This document shows positions 10,307 through 47,087 of a stretch of DNA of 64,000 nucleotides, piece by piece (the stretch's first letter is position 1; each line of letters opens with the position of its first letter). Both the position numbers and the translations under genes were made by a program. The DNA lies in contig MCFH01000015.1 of assembly GCA_002104945.1 (NCBI GenBank), positions 124,001 through 188,000 of the forward strand. The letters run 5' to 3'. Under the pieces are notes generated by a model. The model did not search any database and was not told the origin of the DNA. It saw only the letters and a list, made by a program, of their open reading frames with translations. This stretch comes from Piromyces finnis finn (lineage: Eukaryota; Fungi; Neocallimastigomycota).

Positions 10307-10476
10307 TAAATGATCCTGAGTGAATAAGATCTTTCATCTTCGAATTGATAAGAGCATGGTCAATGTCGGAAGATTGATCACCTCGAGTCCAAGAGATAGT
10401 AGACCCTCTAAGCGGAAGAATTTCCCAATCTCCTAATCCATTAGTTGATAACCAGTTGGATAATTTTACTTTAGAC
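10307..10476 (-). mobile_element. 170-bp internal fragment of family A endonuclease region
   Basis: Matches 7883-8052 of copy 2 (SKVKLSNWL...HSGSF). Confidence 0.95.
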
Positions 10477-10500
10477 GCTCTACCACTAAGCCAAACAGGC
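10474..10500 (-). tRNA. 5' fragment (27 nt) of a tRNA gene: acceptor 5' strand + D arm; isotype not assignable
   Basis: Minus strand GCCTGTT-TG-GCTT-AGTGGTA-GAGC-G-TC gives a 7-nt acceptor strand, a D-stem GCTT/GAGC and a perfect A-box TGGCTTAGTGG. No anticodon or T arm follows. Confidence 0.7.
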
Positions 10501-10929
10501 ATATCATTGATAATAAAAGACTATGCACCAACGTATTATTTGATAACAACTTTTTTTTCAAAATAATAACCTTTAAAAATCATTTAATAATTTATACACT
10601 TTAAATTCAACAATAAAACCTTTACACAACTAATAAGTATATTTTTTATATATTTTGCTTTAATTTTTTATTTAATTTTTAACGTTTCTTTTTTTCTTTC
10701 TAGTACGAAATGTATTAATTTTTATACATTTTAAAATCTTTTTAGTAGATTTTATTTTTCTTTAAATTTATTCTCATTATTTATATTTTCATTGAATTAT
10801 TTCAAAGCATAGAATTTATTATAAAAATTCTAATGATAGGTTTTCTTTTTATTTTCAAATAATATTACACTATACATTGTAAAGTGTTACATCATTTTAC
10901 AGGCGTGATTTAACGGTATCTGGAGTACT

Positions 10930-11757
10930 TTATAAGACATTAACGTTGTTAAGAGTTTCACAAGCTTCTTGGACACGCTTGATCATAGTCTTTTCAGATT
11001 CACGAACCCAAGTACGTGGATCGTAGAACTTCTTGTTTGGCTTGTCTTCACCATCTGGGTTACCGATTTGAGCTTGGAGGTATCCCTTCTTGGCTTCGTA
11101 GAAGTCACGGAGACCAACCCAGTAGGCCCATTGAGTATCGGTATCAATGTTCATCTTAACAACACCGTTAGCAAGAGCGGTCTTGATTTCATCAACAGTA
11201 GAACCAGAACCACCGTGGAAGACGAAGTTAACTGGCTTTTCTTCAGCACAGTTAAGTTGCTTGCGGACGTATTCTTGGTGCTTACCGAGAATTTCTGGGG
11301 CAAGAACGACATTACCTGGCTTGTAGACACCATGAACGTTACCGAAAGCGGCAGCGATGGTGAACATGTCAGTAACTTCAGAGAAAGCCTTGTAGACATC
11401 CCAGATATCTTCTGGTTGAGTGTAAAGCTTGTTGTTGTCAACACCAGAGTTATCAACACCATCTTCTTCACCACCAGTGATACCGATTTCCATTTCTAAG
11501 AGTTGACCCATCTTGGCCATACGCTTAAGGTAACTGACACAGATAGCAATGTTTTCTTCCTTTGGTTCTTCGGAAAGATCTAACATGTGAGAAGAGAAGA
11601 GTGGTTCACCTATTTTATTTAATTATTAAATAATATTAAAAAATCAATATAAATTATAAACCTTTTTCATTTCGTTTTATTATACTAATTATTGTTTTAA
11701 TATTTACCGTGAACAGCGAAGTATTCTTCATCAGCCTTAAGCATACCATCGAACCAT

Positions 11758-11789
<32 letters not shown>

Positions 11790-12104
11790 AAGAATAACTG
11801 GAATACCGTAAGCCTTAGCGACTTGACGGACGTGGAGAGCACCAGCAACGGCACCAAGAATAGAAGCTTCTTGGTTCTTGTTAGAGATACCCTTACCAGC
11901 GTAGAAAGCAGAACCACCGTTAGAGAATTGAATGATGACTGGAGCCTTAATGTCACGAGCAGCTTCAATAACAGCGTTAACAGTAGAGGAAGAAGTACAG
12001 TTAACGGCTGGGATAGCGAACTTGTGGTCCTTAGCGTACTTGAAAAGCTTTCTAAGGTTGTCGCCAGTAACAACACCTGGTGGAACAATATCGAGAATAC
12101 CCAT
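10930..12104 (-). CDS. FBA1: Fructose-bisphosphate aldolase class II, 2 exons (12104-11708, 11609-10930; 358 aa)
   Basis: Motifs AIPAVN, LHSDHCAK, HGEPLFSSHMLDLSEE, EMEIGITGGEEDG, FGNVHGVY, VFHGGSG, KMNIDTD, YDPR. A GT-AG intron at 11707-11610 restores the frame. Confidence 0.97.
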
Positions 12105-12585
12105 TTTAATTAAAATTTAATAATAAATAATTATTATAAAGTTTTGTGAAGAAAAAAAGTAAAAAAAAAGGTAAAATTTATTTTATATAAACTGTAAAAT
12201 TTTTTTCATTATTCATTTTCCAATATATTCGTAATATATTAAATATATATTATTTGATTAAATTATTCTAGGAAGATTGGTGGCTTATTACAATATATTA
12301 TAATATAAATAATATGTATAATAGAATAAATTGATGTATTATATATGATTGGTTTATGTAACGAGTATTTCATCAATACTTTCTATTATATTTCTATTAT
12401 AATTGAATAATTAAATATATTATATATCAAATATATTTTTTATTTTTTAATTTATTAAAATAAATATATAAAAGGTTAGAATAGAATTAAATAGAATTAA
12501 AACAACTTTAAGTAAAAAAAAATGCTAAATTTTATAATTGAATGGTAGATTTTACCGAAATTATCGTATTTTTTTTACATTAATG

Positions 12586-18140: not shown

Positions 18141-19762
18141 ATTAAGAATAATAAAGGAATTGAAAATATTTAGTATATATGAAAATGAAATTGAATTTTA
18201 ATAAAAAAAAAGTATATTTTATATTATTATATATTATAAATCACTACTTTTATTAATAAAAATATTTACCATTAGTATATTTATTTTTTATCATTTTTAT
18301 TTTTCTAGGAATGTATAATTAAATATTTCATAGTTTTCACCTTTTTTTTCTATTACTATACAATATGATAATTCATTAATTTAAAATGTATATATATATA
18401 AATTATATAAATTTTAATATAAACATAAACAATTTTAAACTTTAAATTTTCAATCAAAAATAAAAAATTTGTATAAGACCTAATCCTATTGTAATAAAAA
18501 TTCATATAATTTTCACACAGAAACATTAAAAAAAAAGATTAGGGTAAAATCTATTAAAAAAATATTCTTTTTTGTTAATTCATCTTTCTTCAAGAAATAC
18601 TAATTTTTTACTGTTCAAAATTAAAGTTTATAACATAAACAGAAAGAATAAAAAAGAACTTATAATTATTTATTATTTAAATATTTATTGTTACAAGTCA
18701 GTATACAAAATTTTTTAATAGGCGGTGTAGTTTTTTTTTGAAAAAAAAAAAGACATTTTATATAATAATATAAAATATAAAATATATTATTTAATATTTT
18801 ATTATAAACGCTTGTTTAAATTCAAAACATAATGATCCTTCCTTTAAAGTTTTACCTTTTTCTTTTGAATATTTGAAATGTTTTTATTTGTTTTGTTTGT
18901 TTGAGTGGAATTTAAAGGATTTTATTATTAATCATAGTGGAAAAGTTTTCCAGGGATAATTGTATAAAGTAAATGAATAAATATATAATAATCAAATAAT
19001 TTATATATTTTTTTTTAAATTTAGTAAATGAATAAATAATTAAATTGTAAAGATTAATTTATTATTAATAACAAAAAGATGGTGGTTATGTTTAATTAAT
19101 ATATTATGTAATATATTATATTATATACCAATATATTGTATATATAAAATTAGATTAAAAAAAAAAAAAAAAAAAGAATATAAAATTAAAGGAATTTTGA
19201 TTAAAAAAAAATACTCTTTTTAAATTTCAAATTTTACATAATTTAATTTAGAAATTCTATTGAAGAGGAATGAATTGATGGTTAAATAATAAAAGGGTAA
19301 TAGAATATTAATATAAAGTGATTTATTTTTTTTATAATAAAATCTAATTTAATTAAAACAATTGATAAAAAAACTATTATAACGAAATTTAAAAAAATAA
19401 ATTATTAAAAATATTTTAATTTTCCAATTTTTAGAAATCTATTAAATTGAAAAAAAAAAAAAAAAATTAAAAAATCATTAAAAACAACAACAATAACAAC
19501 ATAATATTATTAAATTAAGTAACTTTTTTTTTTTGAAAAATAAAAATACAAGAATAATATATATATATATTAGAATATTAAGCAAATTTTAATAAAAATT
19601 TTTAAATCAGAAATTCAATTATAGAAATAAATTAATTTATAGTTTTAATAATCTAATAGAATTTTAATAAGTTACAAAAAATAAAATTATATACATATAT
19701 AAAAGAAAAAAGAAAAAAAAAGAAAAGAAAATATATTTAAAAAAATAAAATAATTATAGAAA

Positions 19763-22700
19763 ATGTTTTTTAAGAAAAAACAAATTCCAATTCCAGAACA
19801 ACCACAACAATCACCTTATGAAAAGGCAAATTTTTTTTCAAAATTAACTTTTTCATGGGAAAATCCAATTTTCTATGTAGGTTATAATAGACCTTTAGAA
19901 AAGAATGATTTATATTTATTACCGAATAATCTTCAGGAAAATTATAATGAAAAAAAATTTTATTCACATTGGAATAAAGCTATAGAAAAGGATGGTCAAG
20001 CAAATGTTACAAGAACTTTAATTAAAGTATATGGTCCAAAGTGGTTTCCGGCTGGTATTTTTAAGTTATTATCAGATATTTGTAACTTGATTTCACCAGT
20101 TATATTAGAATTATTATTAAATCATTTAGATAATAAGAATGCTAGAAATAATGAAACTTATAAGGGTTGGATTTATATTGTTTTAATTTTTGTTCTTCAA
20201 ATCTTAGCCACTCTTTTCATTAATACTTATTTTAAAAACACAATGGAAGTTGGTTTATCAGTTAGAGCAACAATTATTGGTATCATTTACAGAAAAACAC
20301 TAAAACTTTCTAATAAAGCTAAACAAACTATCGGTGATGGTCAAATTATTAATTTGGTTTCTACTGATTCTGCTAGAATTCAATTTCTATTAGGTAATTT
20401 ACATTACATCTGGAGTGGTCCATTCCAATTAGTTGTTATTCTTGTTCTTTTAATCCGTTCTTTAGGAGCATGGTCTTTAATTGGATTTACTATTTTCCTT
20501 GTTGTTATTCCACTTCAAGGTTATATTATGAAATTATTAGCTAGACTTAGAAAACAAACTGCAATATTAACTGATCAACGTGTTAAGAGAACTCAAGAAA
20601 TTATTGGTAGTATGAGAGTTATTAAATTCTTTGGTTGGGAAAAGAGTTTCCTTGATATTTTAACTTTCCTTCGTAAGAAGGAATTAAAACGTACTAAAAA
20701 GAGTGTTATCTTAAGTGCTGAAACTTCTGCTATTTTCAATGTTATTCCATTCTTTTCTTGTGCTCTTACTTTCATTGCTTATTCTGCTGCAGGTAATCGT
20801 TTGACTGCTGCTAAAGTATTCTCATCACTTGCTTTCTTTAATATGCTTCGTTTCCCATTAGCTATTTTACCAAATGTTTTTAGTAACCTTATGGATGCTA
20901 AAGTAGCTATGAAACGTTTATCAAATCTTTTAAACGCAAAAGAATTAGATGATTTACCAGAAATTGATGTCACTTCTGATAACGCAATTTCTATTAAAGA
21001 TGGTCAATTCAACTGGGAAAGTGTAAAATCAGATGTTAACAATAAGAATAGTAAATCTAAGGATAAAATAAGTAAAGAAAAGAATAAGAAAGCTAAAACT
21101 AATCAAGGTTCTTCAAGTGCCAGTGCATTAATCAATAACAAATCTACTGAGGATATTACTAATGCTAATCTTAAAAAGAATGTACAGGAAACTGATAGTG
21201 AAGAAGAAAATTCTGCTGATTCCTTCAAGCTTCATGATATTAACATAAAAATTAAAAAGAATTCCTTAACTGCTATTGTTGGTACTGTCGGAAGTGGTAA
21301 ATCTTCTTTAATTAATGCTATTATTGGTGAAATGAAACGTGAAGAAGGTAAAATTACTCTCGGTGGTACTATCAGTTACTGTTCACAACAAGCTTGGATT
21401 CAAAATGCTACTGTTAGAGAAAATATTTTATTTGGTAAGGAATACAATGAAGAATTTTATAACAAGGTAATTGATATTTGTGCTCTTACTCATGATCTTG
21501 AAATTTTCCCAGATGGTGATATGACAGAAATTGGTGAACGTGGTATTAATTTATCTGGTGGTCAAAAACAAAGAGTTAATTTGGCAAGAGCTGTCTATTT
21601 CAATAGTGATATCATTTTAATGGATGATCCATTATCAGCAGTAGATGCTCATGTTAGTCGTGCTCTTTTTGATAATTGTATTCTTGGAGCTTTATCCAAT
21701 AAGACACGTGTTTTAGTTACACACCAACTTCATGTTTTACCAAAGGTTGATTACATCATTGTTATGAATAATGGTCGTATTGAAGAACAAGGTGAATATG
21801 AAGAATTAATGCAAAAAGAAGGAGAATTTGCTAGATTAATGCATACCTATGGTGGTATAGATGAAAATGAAGAAGAAAGCACTGAAAGTATTCCAGAAGA
21901 AACTAAAAAAGAAAAAGAAACTATTAAAAATAAAGAAGTGAAAAAGGAAGAAAAAAAAACAGGTAAAGCTTTAATGACAAAAGAAGAAAGAGCAACTGGT
22001 TCAGTTAAACTTTCTGTTTATAAATCATATGCTAAAGCTGCTGGTGGTGTTATTTGTGCATTCATTATTATTTTCATAGTAATTCTTATTCAATTGGCAA
22101 AACTTGGTAACGATGTTTGGTTGGTAAAATGGACTGAAGGTTATAAGGATTTAAAGACTTCCACTTATATTTTAGTTTACTTACTTTGGAATATTGGTCA
22201 AACTCTTTTAACTCTTCTCTATTCCATTTATTTGGCCTTTGTTGGTATTAAGGCTGCTAGTAGGGTTCATAAAGACGCTATCAGTCGTGTTATTATGGCT
22301 CCAATTAGTTTCTTTGATACAACTCCTTTAGGTAGAATTATTAATCGTTTTTCAAAGGATCAAGATTCTTTGGATAATTCACTTTTTGTTACCATGCAAA
22401 TGTTATTCACCAATCTTGGTAATACTGTTACCACTTTAGTTTTTATGCTTTATGTTGCACCAATCTTTGGTGTAGCCCTCGTACCATTATTATTAATTTA
22501 CTATTTTGTCCAACAATTCTATCGTAGTACCTCACGTGAATTAAAGCGTATTGATTCAATCACTAGATCTCCACTCTATGCAAACCTCACAGAAACAATG
22601 CAAGGCTTACCAACTATTCGTGCTTATAGTGAACAAGAACGTTTCATTAAGTATAATCAATTACTTATTGATGAAAATAATCGTCCACAACATTTACAAA

Positions 22701-23800
22701 TTACTGCTCAAAGATGGTTAGGTCTTAGATTAGAAAGTATTGGTGCTTTCCTTGTCTTATTCGATGGTATTTCTGGATTACTTCTTAAAAATAATATTTC
22801 TTCCTCTCTTTTAGGTTTAAGTTTGTCCTATTCTTTACAAGTTACCTCTAGTCTTAACGCTGTTGTTCGTCAATTTAGTGATACTGAAGTTCATATGAAT
22901 GCGGCCGAACGTCTTTTATACTATGCCAATGAAATTGAAGTTGAAAATCAAAAAGGCTTAGATGCTCCAAAAGACTGGCCAAAACAAGGTAAAATTGAAA
23001 TTAAGGATCTTACCATGAAATATGCTCCACACCTTCCACCAGTATTACATCATGTCAGTTTAGATATTCAATCCAACGAAAAGATTGGTGTTGTTGGTCG
23101 TACCGGTGCTGGTAAATCTAGTATTGTCATGACATTATTTAGATTAGTAGAACCAGAAGTTGGTTCATCTCTTAAGATTGATGATATATCTATTATGGAT
23201 CTTAAGTTGAGTGATTTACGTCAAAGAATATCCATTATTCCTCAAGATCCAATTCTTTTCTCTGGTACCATCCGTTTCAACATGGATCCATTTAATGAAC
23301 ATACAGATGAAGAAATATGGGAAGCTCTTGAAAATGCTGGTTTAAAGCCAACCATTAGTGAATTAGAAAATAAATTAGAATCTGACGTTCGTGCTAACGG
23401 AGAAAACTTTAGTGTTGGTCAGAGACAATTATTATGTCTTGCTCGTGCTATGATTAGAAATAGTCCAATTTTAATTATGGATGAAGCTACAGCTTCAGTT
23501 GATATTGAAACGGATGCCATTATTCAAAAAGCCTTGAGAACCAAATTCAGTAATGTTACTGTTTTAACGATTGCTCACCGTCTTAATACCATTATTGATT
23601 ATGATAAAATTTTAGTTTTAAGTAAAGGAGAAGTTTTAGAATTTGATTCACCAAAGAATTTACTTTTTGAAACTAATGAGAATGGAGAATTAGTACCATG
23701 TACATCCACCGAATTTTCCAAATTAGTTGATGAAACAGGACCAGTTAATGCTGCTTTGTTACGTCAATTAGCTTTTGAAAGTGAAAATAAAAACATTTAA
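19763..23800 (+). CDS. ABCC/MRP-type (YOR1-like) full ABC transporter, 1345 aa, intronless
   Basis: TMD1-NBD1-TMD2-NBD2 with no TMD0. Walker A GTVGSGKSS and GRTGAGKSS; signatures LSGGQKQR and FSVGQRQL; Walker B ILMDD and LIMDE; TTPLGRIINRFSKD. Confidence 0.95.
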   Translation: MFFKKKQIPIPEQPQQSPYEKANFFSKLTFSWENPIFYVGYNRPLEKNDLYLLPNNLQENYNEKKFYSHWNKAIEKDGQANVTRTLIKVYGPKWFPAGIFKLLSDICNLISPVILELLLNHLDNKNARNNETYKGWIYIVLIFVLQILATLFINTYFKNTMEVGLSVRATIIGIIYRKTLKLSNKAKQTIGDGQIINLVSTDSARIQFLLGNLHYIWSGPFQLVVILVLLIRSLGAWSLIGFTIFLVVIPLQGYIMKLLARLRKQTAILTDQRVKRTQEIIGSMRVIKFFGWEKSFLDILTFLRKKELKRTKKSVILSAETSAIFNVIPFFSCALTFIAYSAAGNRLTAAKVFSSLAFFNMLRFPLAILPNVFSNLMDAKVAMKRLSNLLNAKELDDLPEIDVTSDNAISIKDGQFNWESVKSDVNNKNSKSKDKISKEKNKKAKTNQGSSSASALINNKSTEDITNANLKKNVQETDSEEENSADSFKLHDINIKIKKNSLTAIVGTVGSGKSSLINAIIGEMKREEGKITLGGTISYCSQQAWIQNATVRENILFGKEYNEEFYNKVIDICALTHDLEIFPDGDMTEIGERGINLSGGQKQRVNLARAVYFNSDIILMDDPLSAVDAHVSRALFDNCILGALSNKTRVLVTHQLHVLPKVDYIIVMNNGRIEEQGEYEELMQKEGEFARLMHTYGGIDENEEESTESIPEETKKEKETIKNKEVKKEEKKTGKALMTKEERATGSVKLSVYKSYAKAAGGVICAFIIIFIVILIQLAKLGNDVWLVKWTEGYKDLKTSTYILVYLLWNIGQTLLTLLYSIYLAFVGIKAASRVHKDAISRVIMAPISFFDTTPLGRIINRFSKDQDSLDNSLFVTMQMLFTNLGNTVTTLVFMLYVAPIFGVALVPLLLIYYFVQQFYRSTSRELKRIDSITRSPLYANLTETMQGLPTIRAYSEQERFIKYNQLLIDENNRPQHLQITAQRWLGLRLESIGAFLVLFDGISGLLLKNNISSSLLGLSLSYSLQVTSSLNAVVRQFSDTEVHMNAAERLLYYANEIEVENQKGLDAPKDWPKQGKIEIKDLTMKYAPHLPPVLHHVSLDIQSNEKIGVVGRTGAGKSSIVMTLFRLVEPEVGSSLKIDDISIMDLKLSDLRQRISIIPQDPILFSGTIRFNMDPFNEHTDEEIWEALENAGLKPTISELENKLESDVRANGENFSVGQRQLLCLARAMIRNSPILIMDEATASVDIETDAIIQKALRTKFSNVTVLTIAHRLNTIIDYDKILVLSKGEVLEFDSPKNLLFETNENGELVPCTSTEFSKLVDETGPVNAALLRQLAFESENKNI

Positions 23801-24835: not shown

Positions 24836-26042
24836 TAATAGAATGTGTAGAATTATTCCAAAACTTTATTTAATAATAAGTTGTTCATATTTCTACTATA
24901 AAAATACTATCAAATAAAAGTTACAATTAACTATAAAGATATTCATTTTTCTTTTTATAATTCAATTAGTAATAAGTAAAAAATTGAATTTGATACTAAA
25001 TTAAATTTTGTATAGCCATAACATAGTGTATTATTAAATAAGTTAATGAATAAATATATAATAATTAAATAAATTCATTTGACATAATTTTAAACAATTT
25101 AAAATGTGGATTTTTTCTTTGATTCCAAAAACTTTATTTTATAATAAAATGCAAACATTATTTATATATACACAAAATATAATTTAGATGAATTTATATT
25201 AAATCTACAATTTTTTGATTCGTCATTAGAAATAAATTAGTAATTGACAGTATATTAAAAAAATTAAACATTTTGCATAGCCATAACACATTAGTAATTT
25301 ATAAATTAATGAATAAATAATTAATAATTAAATAAATTATTAGGATTTGAATAGGTGAATATGAATAAATATTATTTTTAATACAAAATTATCAAAATTA
25401 TTATTTAAATATAAGATATAATGAATTCTAAAGTACTTACTTTATTTACTATTATTAATTATTAATTACTTTTTATGTTATTAATAATTCAATCCATTTA
25501 AAATTTAATTAAATGCATAAATCATTATTATTTAAATAAATAATAGAATTTTCAAAATTATAATTAAAATTTTAAAATTAATTTTATTAGATCTAAGAAT
25601 TAATATATTCATAGTATATATAATATTATATATTATATGGAATATTATTAATAAAAATTTGAAAATGAATATAAATACCAAAATTTTCCTTTTCGCTTTT
25701 TTTATTTTGTTGGATAAGTTTAATTAAAAAAACATTTTTAAAAGTAATGCTTAATTAAAATTTTAATCTTTTTTTTTTTTTTTATAATTAATAAGTTTAA
25801 AATATTTAAGAATACAAATAATAATAATAATAAAAAAGAAATACATAATAAGCAATAGTTTAAACTATCTTATATATTAAAAAGTATTTCTAGTTCTAAT
25901 AATAATAGCATAAAAAAAAAGATAATAAAATAAAAATAATTATTTTTTATTTTATAGAGTAAGAAACAGCAGGAAAACAAGTAAAAAAAAAAAGTTAATT
26001 AGAATATATTTATTTTTCTTTTTACTATTCTTATATAATAGA

Positions 26043-29000
26043 ATGGTTTTCAAAAAGAGTAAAAAGGAATATCCAATTCCAGATGAACCTCAACCATCTC
26101 CATATACTAAAGCTAATTTATTTTCAAAAATAACGTATTCATGGGAACAACCACTTTTTAAAGTTGGTTATCATAGACCATTAGAAAAGAATGATTTATA
26201 TTTATTACCACCAAAGTTAACAGAAGAATATAATGAAGAACAATTTTATAGTAGATGGGATAAAACAGAAGCAAAAAAAGGAAAAGGAAAAGCTAGTGTA
26301 TTAAATACTATTATAAAAGTATATGGTGTTAAATGGGCATCTTCCGGTATTTTAAAATTAATATCAGATGCTTGTAATACTGTATCTCCAATATTTTTAG
26401 AATTATTATTAGATCATTTATCGAATAAGGATTCTAAAGCTGATGAAGCCTATAAAGGTTATTTGTATATTGCTTGCATGTTTGCTCTTCAAATTATTTC
26501 AACCTTAATTTCCAATTATTATACAAATATTATGATGGAAGTTGGTGTTTCAATTCGTGCAACTGTCATAGGCATTATATACAGAAAAACTTTAAAACTT
26601 TCAAATAAAGCAAGACAAACAATTGGCGATGGAAAAATTATTAATTTGGTATCTTCAGATTCTGCAAGACTTCGTCGTCTTACAGGTAGTATTCATTATT
26701 TATGGAGTGCTCCTATCCAATTAATTGCCATTCTTTTCCTCTTAATTCGTTCCTTAGGAGTTTGGTCATTAATCGGTTTTACTGTTTTTGTTGCAGTAGT
26801 TCCGCTTCAAGGTGTAATTATGAAATATTTAATGAAATTTAGAAGACAAACAGCTATTTTTGTTGATAATCGTGTAAAGAAAACTCAAGAAGTTATTGGC
26901 AGTATGAGAGTCATAAAATTTTTCGGTTGGGAACAAAGTTTCTTAAATATTTTACAAGAACTTCGTAAAAAAGAAATTAATCGTAGTAAAAAAGGAATTA
27001 TTCTTGGCTCCTTTACTCATGCTATTTTTGGTTCTATTCCATTCGTTTCAAGTGCTTTAACATTTATTGCTTATTCTGCTGCCGGTAATAAATTAACTGC
27101 AGCAAAGGTTTTTTCTTCTCTTGCATACTTTAATATGCTTCGTGCTCCATTGGCTATTTTACCAGGTACTATTAATCAATTAGCTGATGCTTCTGTTTCT
27201 ATAAAGCGTATATCCACTCTTTTAAATGCTATGGAATTAGATGATTTACCAGAAGTTGATCCAAATAATGAATATGCAGTTTCTATTAAAGATGGTCAAT
27301 TTAATTGGGAAGTTGTCAAACAAGATGATGTAGATAATAAGAAAGGTAAAAAAGGAAAAAAGAATCAAAAGGATAAAAAGATTAAAAAGAATGACAAGGA
27401 TAGTATTAATAGCTCTAACACCTTCACCAATAATAATAACAACACAACTGGTGATATTGTAGATGAGATTAAAAAGAAAAATAATGATGATACTAGTAGT
27501 ACCAGTTCAAGTGAAGTAATGGAATCCTTCCGTTTACATGATATTAATATAAAAATCAAAAAAAATTCCTTAACTGCTATTGTTGGTACTGTTGGAAGTG
27601 GTAAATCTTCTTTAATTAATGCTATTATTGGTGAAATGAAACGTGAGAAAGGTAAGATTATTCATGGTGGTACTATCAGTTACTGTTCACAACAAGCTTG
27701 GATTCAAAATGCTACTGTTAGAGATAACATCTTATTCGGTAAGGAATACAATGAAGAACTCTACCGTAAAGTTATTGAATATTGTGCTCTTACTCATGAT
27801 CTTGAAATTTTCCCAGATGGTGATATGACAGAAATTGGTGAACGTGGTATTAATTTATCTGGTGGTCAAAAACAAAGAATTAATTTGGCAAGAGCTGTCT
27901 ATTTCAATAGTGATATCATTTTAATGGATGATCCATTATCAGCAGTAGATGCTCATGTTAGTCGTGCTCTTTTTGATAATTGTATTCTTGGAGCTTTATC
28001 CAATAAGACACGTGTTTTAGTTACACACCAACTTCATGTTTTACCAAAGGTTGATTACATCATTGTTATGAATAATGGTCGTATTGAAGAACAAGGTGAA
28101 TATGAAGAATTAATGCAAAAAGAAGGAGAGTTTGCTAGATTAATGCATATTTATGGTGGTATTAATGATAGTGAAGACGATATTACCGATAAATCTAGTG
28201 ATGATGATGACAAGAACGAAAATAATAAAGAAATAGAAATTGAAGAAATTCCAATGGAAAAGGCAACATTTAATGGTATAAATAAGAAACAAGGAAAAGC
28301 TTTAATGACGAAAGAAGAAAGAGCCACAGGTTCTGTTGATATTAAGGTGTATAAAGATTATTTAAAAGCAGCTGGAGGTATTACCATTGGTATTTTAATT
28401 TTAATTGCGGTTATTGTACTTCAAATTTCCAAATTTGGTAATGATATTTGGTTAGTTTACTGGACAGATGATACCTTTAAGTGGGCCACTATTTCTTATA
28501 TTATTGTATATATGATTTGGAACATTTCTCAAATTATCATGAATTTATTCTATTCTGTATTTATGTCTTTCAATGGTTTTAGAGCTTCCAAAAAAATTCA
28601 TAGAGATGCCATTAGTCGTGTTATCATGGCTCCAATTTCCTTTTTCGATACAACTCCTTTAGGAAGAATTATCAATAGATTCTCAAAAGACCAAGATTCT
28701 CTTGATGGTATGCTATTTATGGCTATTCAAGGTTTTATTTCCAGTATTGCATCAACCATTACCACCATCATTTTTATGATTTATGCTGCACCAATCTTTG
28801 GTATCGCTCTCGTTCCCTTATTAATTCTTTACTATTTTGTACAAAAATATTATATTAGTACTAGTCGTGAAATTAAGAGGTTAGAATCTCTTTCTGTATC
28901 TCCTCTTTTTGCTAATTTCACCGAATCCTTACAAGGTTTACCAATTATTCGTGCTTATAGTGAGCAAAATCGTTTTATAAAGCATAATCAACATTTAATT

Positions 29001-30137
29001 GATGACAACAATCGTCCATTCCATTTACAAGTTACTGCTCAAAGATGGTTAGGTGTTCGATTAGAATGTATTGGTGCTTTTCTTGTATTATTTGACGGTA
29101 TTGCCGGATTATTTTTAAAAGATAAGCTTTCAGCATCTCTTTTAGGTTTAAGTTTGTCCTATGCATTACAAGTTACTGGAAGTCTTAATGGTATTATTCG
29201 ATCATTAAATGATCTTGAAATTAATATGAATTCTGCTGAACGTCTATTATACTATGCCAATGAAATTGAAGTTGAAAATCAAAAAGGCTTAGATGCTCCA
29301 AAAGACTGGCCAAAACAAGGTAAAATTGAAATTAAGGATCTTACCATGAAATATGCTCCACACCTTCCACCAGTATTACATCATGTCAATTTAAATGTAA
29401 ATGCTAATGAAAAAGTTGGTGTTGTTGGTCGTACCGGTGCTGGTAAATCTAGTATTGTCATGACATTATTTAGATTAGTAGAACCAGAAGTTGGTTCATC
29501 TATTAAGATTGATGATATGTCCATTATGGATCTTAAGTTGAGTGATTTACGTAAGAAGATTTCTATTATTCCTCAAGATCCAATTCTTTTCTCTGGTACC
29601 ATCCGTTTCAACATGGATCCATTTAATGAACATACAGATGAAGAAATATGGGAAGCTCTTGAAAATGCTGGTTTAAAACCAACCATTAGTGAATTAGAAA
29701 ATAAATTAGAATCTGACGTTCGTGCTAACGGAGAAAACTTTAGTGTTGGTCAGAGACAATTATTATGTCTTGCTCGTGCTATGATTAGAAATAGTCCAAT
29801 TTTAATTATGGATGAAGCTACAGCTTCAGTTGATATTGAAACGGATGCCATTATTCAAAAAGCCTTGAGAACCAAATTCAGTAATGTTACTGTTTTAACG
29901 ATTGCTCACCGTCTTAATACCATTATTGATTATGATAAAATTTTAGTTTTAAGTAAAGGAGAAGTTTTAGAATTTGATTCACCAAAGAATTTACTTTTTG
30001 AAACTAATGAGAATGGAGAATTAGTACCATGTACATCCACCGAATTTTCCAAATTAGTTGATGAAACAGGACCAGTTAATGCTGCTATGTTACGTCAAAT
30101 AGCATTAGAAAAAGAAACGAGCACTCATCAATCATAA
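26043..30137 (+). CDS. ABCC/MRP-type (YOR1-like) ABC transporter, 1364 aa, intronless tandem paralog
   Basis: Same architecture and motifs as 19763-23800. Confidence 0.95.
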   Translation: MVFKKSKKEYPIPDEPQPSPYTKANLFSKITYSWEQPLFKVGYHRPLEKNDLYLLPPKLTEEYNEEQFYSRWDKTEAKKGKGKASVLNTIIKVYGVKWASSGILKLISDACNTVSPIFLELLLDHLSNKDSKADEAYKGYLYIACMFALQIISTLISNYYTNIMMEVGVSIRATVIGIIYRKTLKLSNKARQTIGDGKIINLVSSDSARLRRLTGSIHYLWSAPIQLIAILFLLIRSLGVWSLIGFTVFVAVVPLQGVIMKYLMKFRRQTAIFVDNRVKKTQEVIGSMRVIKFFGWEQSFLNILQELRKKEINRSKKGIILGSFTHAIFGSIPFVSSALTFIAYSAAGNKLTAAKVFSSLAYFNMLRAPLAILPGTINQLADASVSIKRISTLLNAMELDDLPEVDPNNEYAVSIKDGQFNWEVVKQDDVDNKKGKKGKKNQKDKKIKKNDKDSINSSNTFTNNNNNTTGDIVDEIKKKNNDDTSSTSSSEVMESFRLHDINIKIKKNSLTAIVGTVGSGKSSLINAIIGEMKREKGKIIHGGTISYCSQQAWIQNATVRDNILFGKEYNEELYRKVIEYCALTHDLEIFPDGDMTEIGERGINLSGGQKQRINLARAVYFNSDIILMDDPLSAVDAHVSRALFDNCILGALSNKTRVLVTHQLHVLPKVDYIIVMNNGRIEEQGEYEELMQKEGEFARLMHIYGGINDSEDDITDKSSDDDDKNENNKEIEIEEIPMEKATFNGINKKQGKALMTKEERATGSVDIKVYKDYLKAAGGITIGILILIAVIVLQISKFGNDIWLVYWTDDTFKWATISYIIVYMIWNISQIIMNLFYSVFMSFNGFRASKKIHRDAISRVIMAPISFFDTTPLGRIINRFSKDQDSLDGMLFMAIQGFISSIASTITTIIFMIYAAPIFGIALVPLLILYYFVQKYYISTSREIKRLESLSVSPLFANFTESLQGLPIIRAYSEQNRFIKHNQHLIDDNNRPFHLQVTAQRWLGVRLECIGAFLVLFDGIAGLFLKDKLSASLLGLSLSYALQVTGSLNGIIRSLNDLEINMNSAERLLYYANEIEVENQKGLDAPKDWPKQGKIEIKDLTMKYAPHLPPVLHHVNLNVNANEKVGVVGRTGAGKSSIVMTLFRLVEPEVGSSIKIDDMSIMDLKLSDLRKKISIIPQDPILFSGTIRFNMDPFNEHTDEEIWEALENAGLKPTISELENKLESDVRANGENFSVGQRQLLCLARAMIRNSPILIMDEATASVDIETDAIIQKALRTKFSNVTVLTIAHRLNTIIDYDKILVLSKGEVLEFDSPKNLLFETNENGELVPCTSTEFSKLVDETGPVNAAMLRQIALEKETSTHQS

Positions 30138-31568
30138 ATTTATAAAAGTAAGAAAACAAAAACAAACAAACAAACAAAAACAAACATAAAATCCAATTTT
30201 TGCAAAAAAAAAAAAAAAAAAAAAAAAAATCAATATTAGCAATTAAATACTATCAAAAATTAATTTTTAATAAACAATTTTCAATTAAATTATTACTTAT
30301 TATTTATAATTGTAAAAAATAGAGTTAATTTTATTTATTACCATCGATATATAATATTAAATATTTTTATATACCAAGAGAAAAAAAAAAAAAAAGAAAA
30401 AGTATTTAATATATTATCTTTTAGAAATATTTTTAGTATTAGTAAAAAATGTATATGTATTTTTAAAATTATTGATTTATATTTAAATATCCATATTTGT
30501 TTATATAAAATTATTCAAGTGCAAAAAAAAATTGTATATAATTCATAAAAATATAAATATATAAAATAAAAAAATCATAAACTAACGAATTCAATTTTAA
30601 ATAAAAAAGAAAATTTTTGATTATTAACATACATTCTAATATAGAAAAAAAAAAAAAAATTATTATAATTTATCATTACTGATTCATTCTTTCAATTTTT
30701 AAGTAATTTTTTTTTATGTCATAATTTCACATTTTTTTTTAAGAGTTTTTATTTTAAAGGTGATAAACTTAATTCTGAATACTACTGATTATTATAATTA
30801 TTTTAATGTAAAAAAAATCCATTTCAATTTTTTTTATAAAGTTTTGGAGAAATATTCATGCATAAAAAATAACTATATTTAGGATTGATGTCATTCATTC
30901 TAACGATAGTGTTAATAGAGCTAAAAAAATTTTATTTTTCTCTTTAAATTAGTTTATTAAAGCTCTTAATAACAATTACTAATAATGATGATAATAATAA
31001 AGATGAAAAATATTAATATGAAAATGAAAAAAATTTTTTTTTCATTAACAAGATTTATAGGAAACTCAAATATTCTTATTCTATCTTAAAAAAAAAGAAA
31101 AAATAGTACTTAAATTTACAAGAATAAAGTATAATATTAAGTTTCCGTTATTTTAATTTAATAAAGCCGGGTCTAGGATTGATCAGGAACATATTAGTAT
31201 TTACAAAGATGTGATATGATATTCTAGAATTAAATATTATATTTTTTGATTATTTAAAAAAAAAAAAGACTTTTCATTTATTATCATTTGATAGTGTAAA
31301 AGGATTATTAATATATATGATTGTCTTATATTTCTTACAAAATAAAAATACTTTTCTTGATAGTATATTTTTATACTGTTTAAAAAATTTATTATAGTTT
31401 AGTAAATATTAAATTTAAAATGACTTAAAATATATTAAAACGAATGGTATATGTGATCCACAAATATTATAAAATAGATATAAAAAATATTATAAATATT
31501 ATATAAATAATATTGTTTTAAAAAAATTATTATATATAAATAGTGTGAGTTTCAATTACAAATGCAAG

Positions 31569-31640
<72 letters not shown>

Positions 31641-31650
31641 AAATAAATAA

Positions 31651-31706
<56 letters not shown>

Positions 31707-31720
31707 AAATAAATAAATAA
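31569..31720. repeat. (TAAA)n microsatellite
   Basis: ~150 bp of taaa repeats with two slips. Confidence 0.95.
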
Positions 31721-32111
31721 ATTAAAGTATAATTATTTTTTTAACAATATTTCTTTTTTTTTTTTTTCTTTTTTTTTTAAATAAATTTATTAAATTTTAT
31801 TAATACCTTAAAATTTTAAATAAAAATAAATTATATTTCATAAAAGATAAAATATATTTTATATTTAATTTTATTGAATAGTATTGAATAGTATTGAATA
31901 GCATTGAATATAAAATAAATGGTATTGTTTAAATATTTCAGATGGTTTAGGTGTATAATAAGCTATAATTTTATAATATAAATATGTATGTCAATTTATT
32001 ATAAATTACAAGTAAAAATCAAATAAAATTTTAAAAGAAAAATTTTTTTTAATATAAATATATATTTAATTGAATATCTATTTTTTCTTTCAATGACATT
32101 GAAAAAGCGTA

Positions 32112-32680
32112 TTATAAAAATGAATCATCTATATCAGGAATGCTTGTAGAAAAAGGATAATAATATATTTCATCATTATTATAATCAAGTATAATGCCTT
32201 CTTTATCGGTAATAAGATCTTCCATACTTTTGGCAAGTTCTCTTTGCATATAGCCTGTAGAAGAAGTATTGAGAGAAGTTGAGATAATTCCAGCACGTCC
32301 TGATTTAGAACGTATAAATGGTTCTTTTGCTGTAAATCCTTCGGAACATGAACTTTTAATATAACAACTTTACTGACATTAAAATTTGAATCACATTATT
32401 AATTTTCCCTTTCGAACTAACTATTGACAATGTTGGGTTAAATTGTTATTAATTGATAAATATTCTAATAGTGGATAATTTTTTAAATAATACCTTCTTA
32501 TTTCTTTTATTTCTTTACTGTCTTTGTCTTGAGAAAGAATTGAGAAATATAATTTTGGTAGGGGTTCGACAACATGTTGATCATTCGTCATATTATATAA
32601 GCCAGTAAAGGTATCTTGAATAAATTTAATCATAAGTGATCCATCCTTGAATGAACAAATGTTATTTAAAATTTTAATTA
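32112..32680 (-). pseudogene. Frameshifted fragment of a divergent, compact multisubunit RNA polymerase largest-subunit (beta'/RPB1-like) gene
   Basis: Three frames give NICSFKDGSLMIKFIQDTFTGLYNMT; NPTLSIVSSKGKINNVIQILMSV; CYIKSSCSEGFTAKEPFIRSKSGRAGIISTSLNTSSTGYMQRELAKSMEDL...DDSFL*. These are colinear with RPB1 motifs IVQD, GSKG..NIAQ and GFV.NSY..GLT...GGREGLIDTAVKTA.TGY.QRRL.K..ED. Confidence 0.85.
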
Positions 32681-33438: not shown

Positions 33439-36400
33439 TTATTCATTAAGGATGTAATTTAGTTTTGTACGATCATCAGATGCCACTGGAAGACTATTTA
33501 TATCATTCACGATATAGGATGGTTTAGTTAATGCTGTTTGATTTCCATTTATATAAGTCATATTTGTTGTTTGAGTTACCACATAGCTTTGAGTATTGAT
33601 AGACGGATTTTGATTTTGAGCATTCATGTTAATACCAATTGGGGAAACATTATTAGGAATAATATATTGCTGTTGCTGTGGTTGCTGCTGTGGAATAGAA
33701 TTGTTTTGATTTTGCCCTTGTGTAGTATAGGATACAGAAGTATTTACATTATAAATTGGATTTTGATTAGGTTGTTGAGTATATTGATTTTGAGAATATT
33801 GATTTTGTACATTCTGTACATTTTGAACGCTTTGAACATTTTGTACACCTTGGACATTTTGTACATTTTGTACATTTTGAACATTTTGAACATTTTGTAC
33901 ATTTTGAACATTTTGAACATTTTGTACATTATGAACGTTTTGAACATTTTGAACATTTTGAACACCTTGAACATTTTGAACATTTTGAACATTTTGTACA
34001 TTTTGTACATTGGAAGAAGTATATACATATTGTTGTCCTTGTGATGGATTTTGATTTGTTTGATTTGAAGTATAAATTATAGTTTGTTGTGAATTAACTT
34101 GGTTATTATTTAAAGATGTACTATTATTTTGGACATTAGTTGTGGTATACACAATCTGTTGATTTTGAATAGATTGATGAGGTTGCTGAGAAATAGAGTA
34201 TACTTGAAAAGTATTCATTTGTGGTTGTTGAAGTGGTTGAGATTGTTGTTTTGGTTGAACCCGAGTACTTTGATTAGAATAATATGTTTGTGAGGTATTT
34301 CCATAATCTTGAATATAATTTATACCACCGTTTTGTGGTTTTGAATCAACATTTTGAGATTGAGGTGGTGTTGGTTGTTGTTGTACCTGACTAAAGTTAT
34401 TTTGAGAATAAGATACCCAACCTTGGCTTGGTTCTTGAATATTATTATTATTTACCATAGAAGGTGATTGAATTGGTGTAATTTGTTGAGATGGAGTTTG
34501 TGTTATCATTATGGAGGAATATTGACCTTGTTGCTGTTGATTAATGATAGGCTGAGATGGTTGCTGAGGCATGGACTGAACTTGCGTATGTTGATTATAA
34601 TTATTACTATTATTAACAACAAAATTTGATGAAGGCTGTTGTGATGGTTGAGGATTTACTGTTGTTTGACTATTTATCATTGTTGGGGATTGGTTATTTT
34701 GTGAATTTATGATAATTGAATTTTGGTTAGTTTGTAATTGAACTTGTACTGGTTGAGGTGAGATTACATTAGGACTATTTATAATTTGAGGTGGTTGTGG
34801 TGTAGCAGCAGGTGTTGGGATTTGTGATGATATAACTGTGATCGTTTTCGATTGAGCAGATGAATATCCTTCATTAAATACAGGAGGTGAAGGTATAGTT
34901 ATTTGGGTATTATAGTTATTTGGTATATTCTTAATTTGGGTATTTTGTTGTTGAACTTGTTGTGTTGGTGGTGGTGTATTTGTTAAAGATGGATTAGAAG
35001 CATAACTTGGGAACATCTGAATAGTGTTTTGACTCATAGTGGTATAGGTTCCTGGTTGAAGTGCATAAGGAGAGGTAATGGTAGGATTTGGTGATGGATT
35101 GTTACCATTAGGTCTAACATTTATTGAGTTATTTGTGTATTGATTTTGTTGATTTATTTGTTGTTGAATCATTGGGGATTGAGATGGTGGTGTAAGAGGG
35201 GGAACAGTTGAACTATAAGTTTGATTTGAAGTGTTTTGCTTCTCAATTGTTGGACTTGGGGTAGTGATACCTGTATCTTGTGATACGTTTTGTAAATTAT
35301 TTTGTTGAACAGTCATCTGAATATTAGCTATCGGTTGTTGCGTCACAGATGAAGTAAAAATATAAGTATTATTATTTGTATTACCAGAATTAACGGTAGT
35401 AATACTTTGTTTTTGCATTGTCATCGATGGAGAAGGTTGTGGACTATAATTTGTATTATTATTATTACTATTATTATTATTTGATTCATTTATTGTATTT
35501 GAAATTAAATTCACTTTACTTGTATATGGAACAACATTAACTTTTTGGTTCTGATCATAATTTGGAGATTTACTTGATTGATCACTATCAGGAGAAGAAT
35601 TTGTGTTAATATTTTTTTTCCCAGTTTTAGTCTTTTGAATTTTGTTAGGTTGCTTACTTTTATTTACAATTGCTTTTCTTTTTCTCTTTGAAGCTACAGC
35701 AGCCTCAACATCCTTCATAGATATTACACCTTTACTTAACATTTCGTTCCAAACATTAGCAACTAAAGCACTATTTATACTTGTTAATCTATCACCAGCA
35801 CTTTCAAGGACTTTTGACCAAAGCAATTTCATATGTTCAGGTATTTTAGCATGTTGTTTTAAAGTTCTACATAATCTATAAGGTGAAAATAATTTAATAT
35901 TTAATTTAATATTTATTAATATTAATTAATTCAGCAATAAGTTTTTATTAATAATTATATTTTACCTTTCATGCGAAGGTTGATACTTAAAATCTTCTAA
36001 TTGCTTTAATACAGAGGCTATAAATATATTTATTATTATATATTATTAATTATTGCTTAATATTTAAAAATAAAAAAATTATTTACAGGTATTAATAATA
36101 TTTACCAGCATCTAAAAAACGATACACCTCTATTTTTTTATTAATAGGATATTTATTATACAAAAAATATAATTATTTTTATTTATATTAGAATTTGAAA
36201 TTTTTTTATTAATATTTAAGATTGATATCTATTATATACATACGAGCTCTATAATTTTATATAAATAAATAAAAGTCAATAATGTTTTTCTTAATAATAA
36301 TTCAAAATATATAATAAGTTTAATATATTACCTTGATATTTTCCACTTTCTTCTAAAATAATCTTCCAAAGTCGCATCTGTTGCTTTATACAATTTTTTA

Positions 36401-36656
36401 CTACATATGTCATACGCACCCATGACTGTACGTTTAAATTTTTCTTGTTTTTTAATATATTCTTCTCTTTATTATGTTTTATAAATATCATAAAAAGGTG
36501 TTAGTGAAAACAATTTTTTTTTAAATTTATTTTGAAAAACTCATAAAAGAAAAAAAAAACATACTGGTTAACGGTATTAATGGCTTCAGTGGATAGATCC
36601 ATTGAGGATTCTGCTATTTTTAAATTATATGCAATATTTACTTTATCCATTGTCAT
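33439..36656 (-). CDS. Q/N-rich low-complexity protein with ~150-aa conserved N-terminal helical domain; 6 exons (36656-36565, 36466-36332, 36248-36244, 36129-36106, 36017-35966, 35875-33439)
   Basis: All introns are GT-AG and the phases are consistent. The spliced N-terminus reads MTMDKV...KKLYKATDATLEDYFRRKWKISRAQVYRFLDAASVLKQLEDFKYQPSHERLCRTLK... into the 797-aa ORF. Confidence 0.85.
33803..34011 (-). repeat. Coding 9-bp tandem repeat (AATGTT/ACAA; NVQ x ~23)
   Basis: Visible in DNA and in the ORF translation. Confidence 0.95.
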
Positions 36657-45059: not shown

Positions 45060-47087
45060 ATATTGATATAATAAATAAAAAATAAAAATAATAAAATATA
45101 TATAAATAAAAATATAAATATAAAATAATATAAAATAATTATTTAAGTTGCATAAAAGTTCAATGAACTCTGCAATTTGTACTGTGTGGGATTGGTCCCT
45201 ACCTAATAAATTAAATGAAATAAAAAAAAAGAAGTAACATCAGGTATGATAGTGTGGTGTCCACTAAACTCTCCCATGAGCTCATAATGTTTTCATTCGA
45301 AGAAATACTAACATTGAACCCTGTGTACCGAATATTAGGAATGTTCCTTTGCCATATCGGTACGACGTCGACACTCTTGATTACGTTAGGTGTCTTACTA
45401 AACCTATCGAAAAGTAGCTTCATAGAGCTATTAATGATAGGGATTGTTTTAGTAAGAAAAGCCGCGAGACCCTCTACCTATGGAACATGAGACCCCAATG
45501 AACTGTAAAGCTGTTCATTCAAATGTCTTTGTTCCGCCTTATCGATTTGTAGCTCATCATAAGCTAAAGTTCCACCAAGAAGGAACGTAAAAATATAGTT
45601 ATAAATTGTTTTTCTTACTTCCATTTCGGAGAGTAAGTATATGATGAATTGATTCTTATATTTATTGTAAAAAAGGGTAAGAAGATCGTCAAGAAAGCTA
45701 AGTGAAGAAGTTCTGTATTCAGAGAATGCAGAATATTCTAATATCCAATGGTAAAAAGATTGTTCGTCATATCCACAACATGGACAGACACGAGGGCAGT
45801 CAGGAGTAACTCTATTTCTGGCAATAGCAATTCGGGTAGTGTATTCATAACCTCATCGAATACGAATAATCCAGGTAATTCCTAAATTTAAGTGAGGTTT
45901 GTTGAGACCGATATGCATTAGGCGATTTGAATTAAGGAATTTGTTGTTAGTATATCTGAGGGCTTTACTTCCATTATTTAGGCTACTATTATTCCAATAA
46001 TATTCTCTAATATCTTTAGTACTTTTAATATTTATTTTCATAAGCTTCTTATGAAGTGAACAAGATCCTTTGGCCCAAGAGTAATGAGACATGGGAGGAA
46101 TAGATCGGACGAGATCTTTAATAATACAATTTGATTTTCTCCATTTAACAAAGCATTTCACTTGTTGCGCAGTACAAATACCTGAAAGGGTAGGAATCTT
46201 CATATCTCTTGTAAGAGCATACAGACTAATAATGAATTTCGTTCAAAAACAAAATCTTTGTTATTAAGACTTTTATTGTGAAAGCTATTGACACTCCATA
46301 AAACAGTAGTATTGATAAGAGATTGGACTCTTCTACTTCTATTTTTGTTGGAACCAAGTAAAGGAGCATAATAAGAGACTTTGCTTAAAATATAGGAATG
46401 AATTACTATATTTTTTAAGCCAATAGGAACACAATTGTTAGTGAGGAAGCTCTTAAAAGAGAATAAAGATTTCTGAACTTTTTTGTACATATTAAACAGA
46501 ATAGGAGTCAGAGAAAGATCTTCGCCGAATGGGATTCCAAGATAAGTATAGCAAGAAACCTTTGGAATCGAGTACATACAGATGTAAAATGTTAGATCAA
46601 TATAACTAGGGGATCTATTAAAGTTGATAGGTTTAACAACAATAGTTGCACATTTATTTATTCCAAAAGACATTTCATTTAAATTAGCCCAATCAAGGAC
46701 TAGATTGAGCATCTTTTGAAGGTTCTTCTTGCTAGGAGCAATCAGAACAATGTCATCCGCGAAAAGGCCACCACAGCAACGTTTATTTCTTAAACTAACA
46801 CCAAGCCTTTCACATTTATTTAAAATATCATTGATAAAGAGATTAAATAGAATAGGAGAAAGAGGACATCTTGTCTTACACCACGGTTGATAGGGAATTC
46901 ATTAGAAAGTATATCCAAGAAGCGTACACGAGCTTTTGAGGTAGAGTAGATTATTAAGAAAATCAAAACACTTACCACGTATACCTAATTTATATAGCTT
47001 TGTAAGGATATTAAAAATAAGAACTGAGTCATATGCTTTTTTAAGGTCAAGAAAAGCAACATAAGTGGCTTTTCCTTTAAATTTTCT
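45060..47087 (-). mobile_element. Degenerate non-LTR retrotransposon family B, 3' part (RT C-terminal half + CCHC region); left boundary approximate
   Basis: Broken frames encode RRKFKGKATYVAFLDLKKAYDSV, CPLSPILFNLFIND, GGLFADDIV, YAPLLGSNKNR and CPRVCPCCG. Homologous to family A but clearly diverged, with frameshifts. Confidence 0.9.

What the first reader, a model, noticed from the sequence alone, without database searches (positions are those of the whole stretch)
32112..32680. Fossil of a minimal, non-host RNA polymerase: probable nuclear capture from a cytoplasmic linear plasmid / virus-like element
Seen: in otherwise featureless AT-rich DNA, ~570 bp encodes, with two frameshifts (~32440 and ~32370), four colinear beta'/RPB1 motifs: IQD, SSKGK..N..Q, YIKSS.SEG, and the bridge helix GRAGIISTSLNTSSTGYMQRELAKSMEDL. 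It is intronless. The spacers are far shorter than in cellular RPB1/RPA1/RPC1: ~65 aa between IQD and SKG versus >200 aa, and almost none between N..Q and YIKSS. The frame stops naturally ~30 aa after the bridge helix, before any trigger loop. Known: yeast cytoplasmic linear plasmids (Kluyveromyces lactis pGKL2 ORF6 type) encode a stripped-down two-part RNAP. As I recall, the large subunit ends near this region and a separate small ORF supplies later beta' segments. Fragments of such plasmids occur in yeast nuclear genomes. Inference: this lineage hosts or hosted an undescribed cytoplasmic DNA element with its own transcription machinery. A divergent large DNA virus is the main alternative source.
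Basis: partly seen in the sequence, partly recalled or inferred. Interest (0 to 1): 0.82.

Follow-up and report, generated by a model that had tools for sequence, protein, structure and literature searches.

The report
Broken giant-virus polymerase in gut fungus
This is a 590-base broken scrap of an RNA polymerase gene whose intact relatives belong to a known family of giant-virus-like elements in gut-fungus genomes; it is likely a dead fossil, and most of its apparent compactness comes from deletions in this one copy rather than from a minimal plasmid enzyme.

Summary
In detail: minus strand 32678-32088 encodes colinear RPB1 pieces with two frameshifts. The gene is non-host but is not a yeast-type plasmid ORF6. 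Its relatives (60-86% identical; Piromyces, Neocallimastix, Anaeromyces) are stand-alone 692-776 aa RPB1 N-halves with clamp zinc site and funnel. Five of them lie on contigs whose lengths match contigs that Gong et al. 2020 (PMC7017919) list as endogenous 'fundsalphavirus', a Pithovirus-related giant-virus lineage. The short IQD-SKG spacer is an in-frame 138-codon deletion in this copy (70 aa versus about 208). The stop at 32114 is a premature TAA. Three reductions are real family traits: the split after the bridge helix (known), a ~26-residue F-loop loss, and a ~59-residue dock loss shared with close relatives. No other viral gene was found in the window (limited search). This scan noted the same family and F-loop loss on other DNA (e1-10290475). 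Verdict: decayed new member of a known endogenous virus family. The open lead is that the intact multicopy element may be a live, capsid-less, plasmid-like giant-virus derivative.

The parts
32562..32678 (-). Remnant of RP1n residues 378-416 (numbering of intact P0071), with the IQD motif; 5' break of the fragment lies near 32672-32680. The catalytic DFDGDE motif and everything upstream are absent.
   Evidence: 77% identity over 39 aa; paralogous contigs run on unlike the window behind 32672 (table 7)
32561..32562 (-). Junction of an in-frame deletion of 138 codons (P0071 residues 417-554), specific to this copy
   Evidence: tblastn HSP boundaries; an X3 contig joint skips 16 and holds 430 letters between, net 414 nt (table 5)
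32439..32561 (-). Remnant of the funnel helices, residues ~555-598; ends in the first frameshift (small net deletion around 32418-32454)
   Evidence: gaps against paralogous contigs (tables 4 and 8)
32371..32436 (-). Second reading frame with SKGK..N..Q (residues 605-619)
   Evidence: 14 of 15 identical to P0071
32370..32370 (-). Second frameshift: 20-nt deletion removing residues 620-626
   Evidence: 20 gaps in X2 record 11 and X6 record 25
32115..32369 (-). Residues 627-711: YIKSS..SEG and the bridge helix GRAGIISTSLNTSSTGYMQREL
   Evidence: 86% identity to P0071; Pfam PF04998 E=2.9e-11; S. pombe Rpb1 805-870 E=4.4e-9
32112..32114 (-). Premature TAA at a position that is Glu in intact relatives
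32088..32111 (-). Last eight homologous codons, matching the natural C-terminus of the split RP1n
   Evidence: tblastn alignment to P0071 residue 720 ends at 32088

Best explanation
The region is a truncated, deleted and frameshifted 590-bp piece of the N-terminal-half RNA polymerase gene (RP1n) of a fundsalphavirus, a giant-virus-related element that is present in many copies in anaerobic gut fungi, and this copy is likely non-functional. Shown: it lacks the catalytic motif and carries a 138-codon deletion, two frameshifts and a nonsense codon. It sits alone between two convergent host genes. Inferred: the host is a neocallimastigomycete. The piece arrived as a small fragment of, or is the last remnant of, one of several related copies in the same genome, and decayed without selection. 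Inferred for intact copies: a ~720-aa RP1n (clamp, active site, funnel, bridge helix) would pair with a separately encoded RP1c (trigger loop) and RPB2 to transcribe the element's own genes. With the F-loop gone, trigger-loop folding is predicted to be slower and less accurate, or to be compensated elsewhere.
For: 25 hits among 57 candidates at 60-86% identity; all named ones are Piromyces, Neocallimastix or Anaeromyces. Contig lengths of P0011, P0024, P0003, P0010 and P0228 (857073, 246453, 168386, 127315, 68043) equal those of fundsalphavirus contigs in Gong et al. Fig. S2, and those contigs appear in their RPB1 tree. Tree of 62 rows, 649 columns, LG+C20: fragment + P0071 SH-aLRT 99; gut-fungal clade 100; 21-row clade of short split RPB1s 98, including Sphagnum and Gaertneriomyces proteins and a viral contig. 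A model of P0071 (pLDDT 88) has Pithovirus LCPAC104 RNAP as top viral-fold hit. Paralogous contigs about 88-90% identical, holding the missing sequence, occur in the same runs. GC is 27% in the fragment against 11-13% in the flanks.
Against: My trees hold no named pithovirus, poxvirus, VLE ORF6 or RPA1 row; most other rows are unnamed and their labels (RPC1-like, viral) are my inference. The gut-fungal branch is long (1.36), so its exact sister (support 89) is uncertain. Fold-search ranks are close (Pithovirus 8.9e-40, next 3.7e-39, cellular RPB1 1.8e-36 in another library). The mixture-model AU test did not finish; the quoted AU values are LG+G4 on 30 of the 62 rows. No DNA context of an intact copy could be fetched, so gene neighbours come from the paper's figure text. 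Two contigs from runs guessed to be RNA match the fragment almost exactly, so low-level transcription is not excluded.
Confidence: 0.9

Rival explanations
1. Nuclear capture from a yeast-type cytoplasmic linear plasmid (VLE) with a pGKL2 ORF6/ORF7-type polymerase.
For: ORF6 and this family both end before the trigger loop (PMC6211774 passage). VLEs occur outside yeasts, with one tentative chytrid contig (PMC13348850 passages). Chitin-binding domains flank the element in Gong Fig. S2.
Against: Intact relatives are not fused to beta, and 48 of 48 keep the zinc-clamp motif; they also keep the funnel domain. ORF6 lacks these parts. In Gong et al. the neighbouring polymerase groups with Pithovirus PolB and sits beside a D5 primase-helicase and UDG, whereas VLEs use protein-primed PolB. 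PMC13348850's main text has 0 hits for Neocallimastig, Piromyces or Anaeromyces.
Confidence: 0.03
2. Pseudogene of a host RPB1, RPC1 or RPA1, compacted by deletions.
For: Best PDB sequence hits are cellular RPB1 and archaeal Rpo1N, and large deletions do occur in this copy.
Against: 86% identity to the viral-type family against about 30% or less to anything else; AU tests reject grouping with RPB1 (p=7.8e-6) and RPC1-like rows (p=1.7e-4); RPA1 scores are lower than RPB1 scores. RPA1 was not in the tree.
Confidence: 0.01
3. The fragment has been kept for a host function, for example as a small RNA or antisense source against the multicopy element, or as part of a neighbouring gene's 3' region.
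For: It lies between two convergent host genes. Near-exact contigs occur in two runs guessed to be RNA (X2, depth 7; X3, depth 4.4).
Against: The lesions look unselected. No RNA holder is on record, which is no evidence either way.
Confidence: 0.06

Closest known systems
Fundsalphavirus endogenous elements of early-diverging fungi (Gong, Zhang and Han 2020, PMC7017919; main text parts 1-2 of 3, supplement parts 1, 2, 4, 6 of 7 and searches read)
   Same: Same protein family: close relatives lie on contigs of the same lengths as those listed there; RPB1 given as separate RP1n and RP1c; multicopy in Neocallimastigomycota; stop codons and frameshifts common.
   Different: This locus has only a 590-bp RP1n piece with no PolB anchor, so their PolB-based screen would miss it. 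In the parts I read they do not describe the F-loop or dock loss.
Pithovirus-like viruses and the moss (Physcomitrella) endogenous 'virus'
   Same: Top viral-fold hit is a 905-aa Pithovirus LCPAC104 subunit. The moss element also has RP1n and RP1c and nests in fundsalphaviruses. A Sphagnum protein is in the sister group in my tree.
   Different: Only about 20-33% identity. The relatives keep most of the F-loop (spacer 59-70 aa against 45).
Yeast VLE RNA polymerase (K. lactis pGKL2 ORF6/ORF7; Sykora et al. 2018, PMC6211774; passages and section 17 read)
   Same: Reduced, virus-derived enzyme with beta' divided between the bridge-helix part and the trigger-loop part.
   Different: ORF6 is a beta-beta' fusion without most of the clamp, lid, rudder and rim helices; this family is unfused and keeps clamp and funnel. 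The replication polymerase type also differs.
Archaeal Rpo1N (A')
   Same: Largest subunit ends shortly after the bridge helix (880-910 aa chains).
   Different: Separate clade in the tree; keeps F-loop and dock. The shared split is likely convergent.

Membership tests
Fundsalphavirus (Gong 2020) | RPB1 belongs to the clade of RP1n proteins found beside fundsalphavirus PolB | tested here: met
   86% identity to P0071/P0002/P0003; five relatives on contigs with lengths equal to listed contigs; clade support 100
Fundsalphavirus (Gong 2020) | RPB1 split into RP1n and RP1c | tested here: met
   48 of 48 full-length members end 56-75 aa after GYxQR; window homology ends at the same place. RP1c itself was not retrieved.
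Fundsalphavirus (Gong 2020) | Pithovirus-related family B DNA polymerase and shared genes (D5, SNF2 helicase, MTase, RPB2) at the locus | tested here: not met
   No other viral gene found in the window: 245 ORFs from 10 viral loci hit only the RNAP piece. The queries were distant relatives, so sensitivity is low. Expected for an isolated fragment: the claim is 'piece of', not 'complete element'.
Yeast-type VLE (pGKL2 ORF6) | beta-beta' fusion in one polypeptide | tested here: not met
   Intact relatives are 692-776 aa with Rpb1 domains only
Yeast-type VLE (pGKL2 ORF6) | Clamp and secondary-channel rim helices missing | tested here: not met
   Zinc motif in 48 of 48; Rpb1_4 funnel hit; helices 533-591 modelled at pLDDT about 81-94
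Yeast-type VLE (pGKL2 ORF6) | beta' divided before the trigger loop | tested here: met
   shared with archaea and fundsalphaviruses, so not diagnostic
Yeast-type VLE (pGKL2 ORF6) | Protein-primed PolB, terminal inverted repeats, linear cytosolic DNA | not testable with these tools
   No genome held; no intact element DNA retrieved
Host RPB1/RPC1/RPA1 | Groups with the cellular paralogue | tested here: not met
   AU rejects RPB1 and RPC1-like groupings; RPA1 not in the tree
Nucleocytoviricota virus able to make virions | Major capsid protein and A32 packaging ATPase | not testable with these tools
   From the paper only: no Neocallimastigomycota label among fungal MCP/A32 hits in the text of Figs S9-S10 (labels glued to other words could be missed), and none in the gut-fungal rows of Fig. 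S2

The most novel reading that the evidence does not exclude
The gut-fungal fundsalphavirus is not just a fossil. It is a still-proliferating, capsid-less unit of roughly 20-40 kb (cap methyltransferase, UDG, RPB2, D5, PolB, RP1c, helicase, RP1n, chitin-binding proteins) derived from a giant virus. It transcribes itself with a split RNA polymerase that has lost the F-loop and dock, so it is a second, independent route from large DNA virus to fungal plasmid-like element, parallel to yeast VLEs. Hints: 13 full-length 719-aa copies are 97.1-99.9% identical (cluster of 75); metagenome contigs carrying the gene reach 18-42 kb; a paralogue has about six times the depth of the locus contig in one DNA run (depth is not a copy number); one contig in Gong Fig. 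S2 reads as a circular permutation of the usual gene order (machine-read figure); no capsid hits in these fungi in that paper.
Probability: 0.3. Interest if true: 0.7.

Novelty: new member of a known kind. Interest (0 to 1): 0.25.

Why it matters
The locus itself matters little: it is one more decayed piece of a described endogenous virus family. It shows that compactness read from a fossil can mislead, since the largest 'reduction' is damage to this copy. The intact family matters more. F-loop deletion slows Thermus aquaticus RNAP about 70-fold and weakens discrimination against dTTP about 70-fold (PMC3874190, abstract and passages). Yet a family of 58-84% identical proteins with intact catalytic motifs has lost this loop. 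That is a natural test of whether the F-loop is dispensable. If the element is alive and capsid-less, it would also be a new kind of selfish DNA in rumen fungi.

Tried and rejected
DNA context of intact copies was not obtained. The window piece and a family-specific pattern in viral and prokaryote contigs found nothing. No whole genome is held, and L001's record is not held, so no capsid search could be run on it. A search for the separate RP1c with a distant query listed no named gut-fungal hit among the best 120 of 1491. The plasmid collection gave only bacterial rpoC, so no ORF6 sequence was available for the tree. The first fold from 11 sequences was poor (pLDDT 45) and was not used. The mixture-model AU test never finished. 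Repeats around the fragment are low-complexity AT matches, with no credible terminal repeat. The sigma-70 scan was at chance (8 against 7.7) and is not relevant to a fungus. In the regex spacer count 190 of 483 sequences were not measurable and one value (4) is an artefact; the alignment-based count is the one relied on. Literature: 'fundsalphavirus' and 'Neocallimastix + NCLDV' each returned only PMC7017919; one search returned none; one search returned four general papers seen only as listings. The Mycodnaviridae paper (PMC13533422, term search only) has no mention of gut fungi or pithoviruses. No search paired F-loop with viruses, and subscription papers are not covered, so 'not in print' is not claimed for the F-loop loss.

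Full report
Observation. The minus strand carries three reading segments, 32681-32424, 32445-32359 and 32369-32115, holding IQD, SSKGK..N..Q, YIKSS..SEG and the bridge helix in order. The last segment matches Pfam Rpb1_5 at E=2.9e-11 and S. pombe Rpb1 805-870 at E=4.4e-9, so it is not chance. The fragment is 27% GC in flanks of 11-13% GC. It lies between an ABC transporter gene (+, ends 30137) and a Q/N-rich gene (-, ends 33439), which converge on it. Contigs of two runs from different studies reproduce it without a difference, one of them possibly the source, so the lesions are real. The window (24% GC, LINE elements, very AT-rich intergenic DNA) and the names of all close relatives point to an anaerobic gut fungus; I did not test the host genes taxonomically.

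Relatives. The last segment finds 25 proteins among 57 candidates at 60-86% identity; the named ones come from Piromyces, Neocallimastix and Anaeromyces, and the rest from metagenome or Logan assemblies. Of 65 stored proteins with the family motif, 48 are 690 aa or longer (692-776). All 48 have DFDGDE and the N-terminal zinc motif, and all end 56-75 aa after GYxQR. Pfam finds Rpb1 domains 1-5 in P0071 and no beta domain. One cluster has 75 members (40 read, 15 listed); its 13 listed 719-aa copies are 97.1-99.9% identical.

What is damage and what is trait. Against the intact 721-aa P0071 the window covers residues 378-416, 555-598, 605-619 and 627-720. Codons 417-554 are missing in frame; a paralogous contig holds a net 414 extra bases at that junction. 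The IQD-to-SKG distance is therefore 70 aa here, 191-234 in 9 of 9 family rows and median 220 in 100 other rows. The second frameshift removes residues 620-626. The stop at 32114-32112 is TAA at a Glu position, and similarity runs on to 32088. Three reductions are family traits. (1) The natural end shortly after the bridge helix. (2) The SKG-to-GRxG spacer is 45 aa in 9 of 9 family rows, 59-70 in 18 of 18 short split relatives and median 71 (minimum 57) in 100 others. S. pombe Rpb1 has 28 residues where P0071 has 4. [quoted passage not shown] (3) The RSVI-to-NRQP spacer is 38 aa against median 97 (n=98), and 35-52 in 15 of 18 close relatives. That this is the dock domain is recalled knowledge.

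Family. Gong et al. 2020 (PMC7017919) describe endogenous 'fundsalphaviruses' in 14 fungal species, including five gut fungi. Their PolB is close to Pithovirus, and they share D5, an SNF2 helicase, a methyltransferase, RPB2, RPB5, RP1n and RP1c. Five of my relatives lie on contigs of 857073, 246453, 168386, 127315 and 68043 bases, the lengths of contigs in their Fig. S2, and those contigs are in their RPB1 tree. P0071 itself lies on a 309320-base contig not found in that supplement. In my tree (62 rows chosen from the 127 plus 7 more; 649 columns) the fragment pairs with P0071 (99) in a gut-fungal clade (100). That clade lies within a 21-row clade of mostly short split RPB1s (98), which includes Sphagnum and Gaertneriomyces proteins and viral contig L001, apart from CTD-bearing RPB1, RPC1-like and archaeal rows (FastTree on 128 rows agrees). 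On 30 rows under LG+G4, AU tests reject grouping with RPB1 (p=7.8e-6) and with RPC1-like rows (p=1.7e-4). Limits: no RPA1, ORF6, pox or named pithovirus row; long branch; mixture-model AU unfinished. An 85-sequence model of P0071 (pLDDT 88) ranks Pithovirus LCPAC104 first among viral folds, narrowly. L001 carries a D5 protein, a capping enzyme and a similarly split RPB1. A Neocallimastix methyltransferase, P0038, matches that capping enzyme's methyltransferase part (37% over 114 aa, E=5e-23), which fits the 'AdoMet MTase' of Gong's figure being a cap methyltransferase (inference; its locus was not seen).

Why not a yeast-type plasmid. K2ORF6 is a beta-beta' fusion, the fusion appears essential, and most of the clamp, lid, rudder and rim helices are missing (PMC6211774). 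The family fails both defining features. VLEs use protein-primed PolB (PMC13348850 introduction), whereas the neighbours in Gong's figure are an NCLDV-type PolB and D5. Only the split position is shared, and archaea share it too.

How it most likely works. This copy does nothing as a protein: no catalytic motif, four lesions, and no other viral gene detected in the window (low sensitivity). The same runs hold several paralogous contigs about 88-90% identical, one at depth about 823 against 142 for the locus contig (the tool warns that depth is not a copy number). The fragment is therefore best read as debris of a resident multicopy element. Whether it was copied as a small piece or eroded from a full insertion cannot be told. 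For intact copies I infer a multi-subunit enzyme from RP1n, RP1c and RPB2. In Thermus aquaticus RNAP, F-loop deletion lowers the nucleotide-addition rate about 70-fold and acts only through the trigger loop (PMC3874190), so the enzyme is predicted to be slow or compensated; RP1c could not be retrieved to check.

Novelty and score. The lineage, its hosts and the split gene are in print. The F-loop loss was noted earlier in this scan on another piece of the same genome, and I confirmed it. The locus is a new decayed member of a known kind: interest 0.25. The boldest reading not excluded is a live, capsid-less giant-virus derivative behaving like a plasmid or transposon in gut fungi (probability 0.3). 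It rests on near-identical intact copies, a compact and repeated gene order, and no gut-fungal capsid or packaging hits in the text of Gong's Figs S9-S10. The figure text was machine-read, and parts 3, 5 and 7 of that supplement were seen only through searches.

Noticed in passing
window 4681-9236, 47368-51894 and near 1564-2933: Near-identical young non-LTR retrotransposon copies (endonuclease-like N-terminus plus RVT_1); the copy at 47368-51894 has one 1508-aa open frame, the copy at 4681-9236 is split into two frames. An older, decayed relative lies at 45478-46898.
   Followed up: no
window 10930-12116 (-): Class II fructose-bisphosphate aldolase in two frames (probably one intron), at 42% GC against the AT-rich background, with a retrotransposon fragment just downstream at 10146-10520.
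   Followed up: no
window 19760-23800 and 25929-30137 (+): Two tandem ABCC/MRP-type transporter genes, each one long open frame, with nearly identical 3' ends.
   Followed up: no
window 33439-35925 (-): Q/N-rich 828-aa open frame with a tandem NVQ repeat; probable upstream exons at 36294-36656.
   Followed up: no
window 31566-31720: (TAAA)n microsatellite about 370 bases from the fragment's 3' end.
   Followed up: no
L001 1-13345: IMG/VR contig (40 kb record) with D5, capping enzyme, a DUF5757 protein and a 780-aa RPB1 that ends 33 aa after the bridge-helix motif; falls in the same short split clade, so it may be a free-living relative of fundsalphaviruses.
   Followed up: partly
P0086 (Gaertneriomyces) and P0091 (Sphagnum troendelagicum): Proteins annotated as host RPB1 or unnamed fall in the viral short split clade as sister to the gut-fungal family (support 89). 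P0086 has a ~250-aa C-terminal extension with no Pfam hit, which by recall resembles a primase domain.
   Followed up: partly
P0038 (Neocallimastix californiae): 240-aa methyltransferase listed in the RP1n cluster; 37% identical to the methyltransferase part of L001's capping enzyme, so likely the element's cap methyltransferase.
   Followed up: partly
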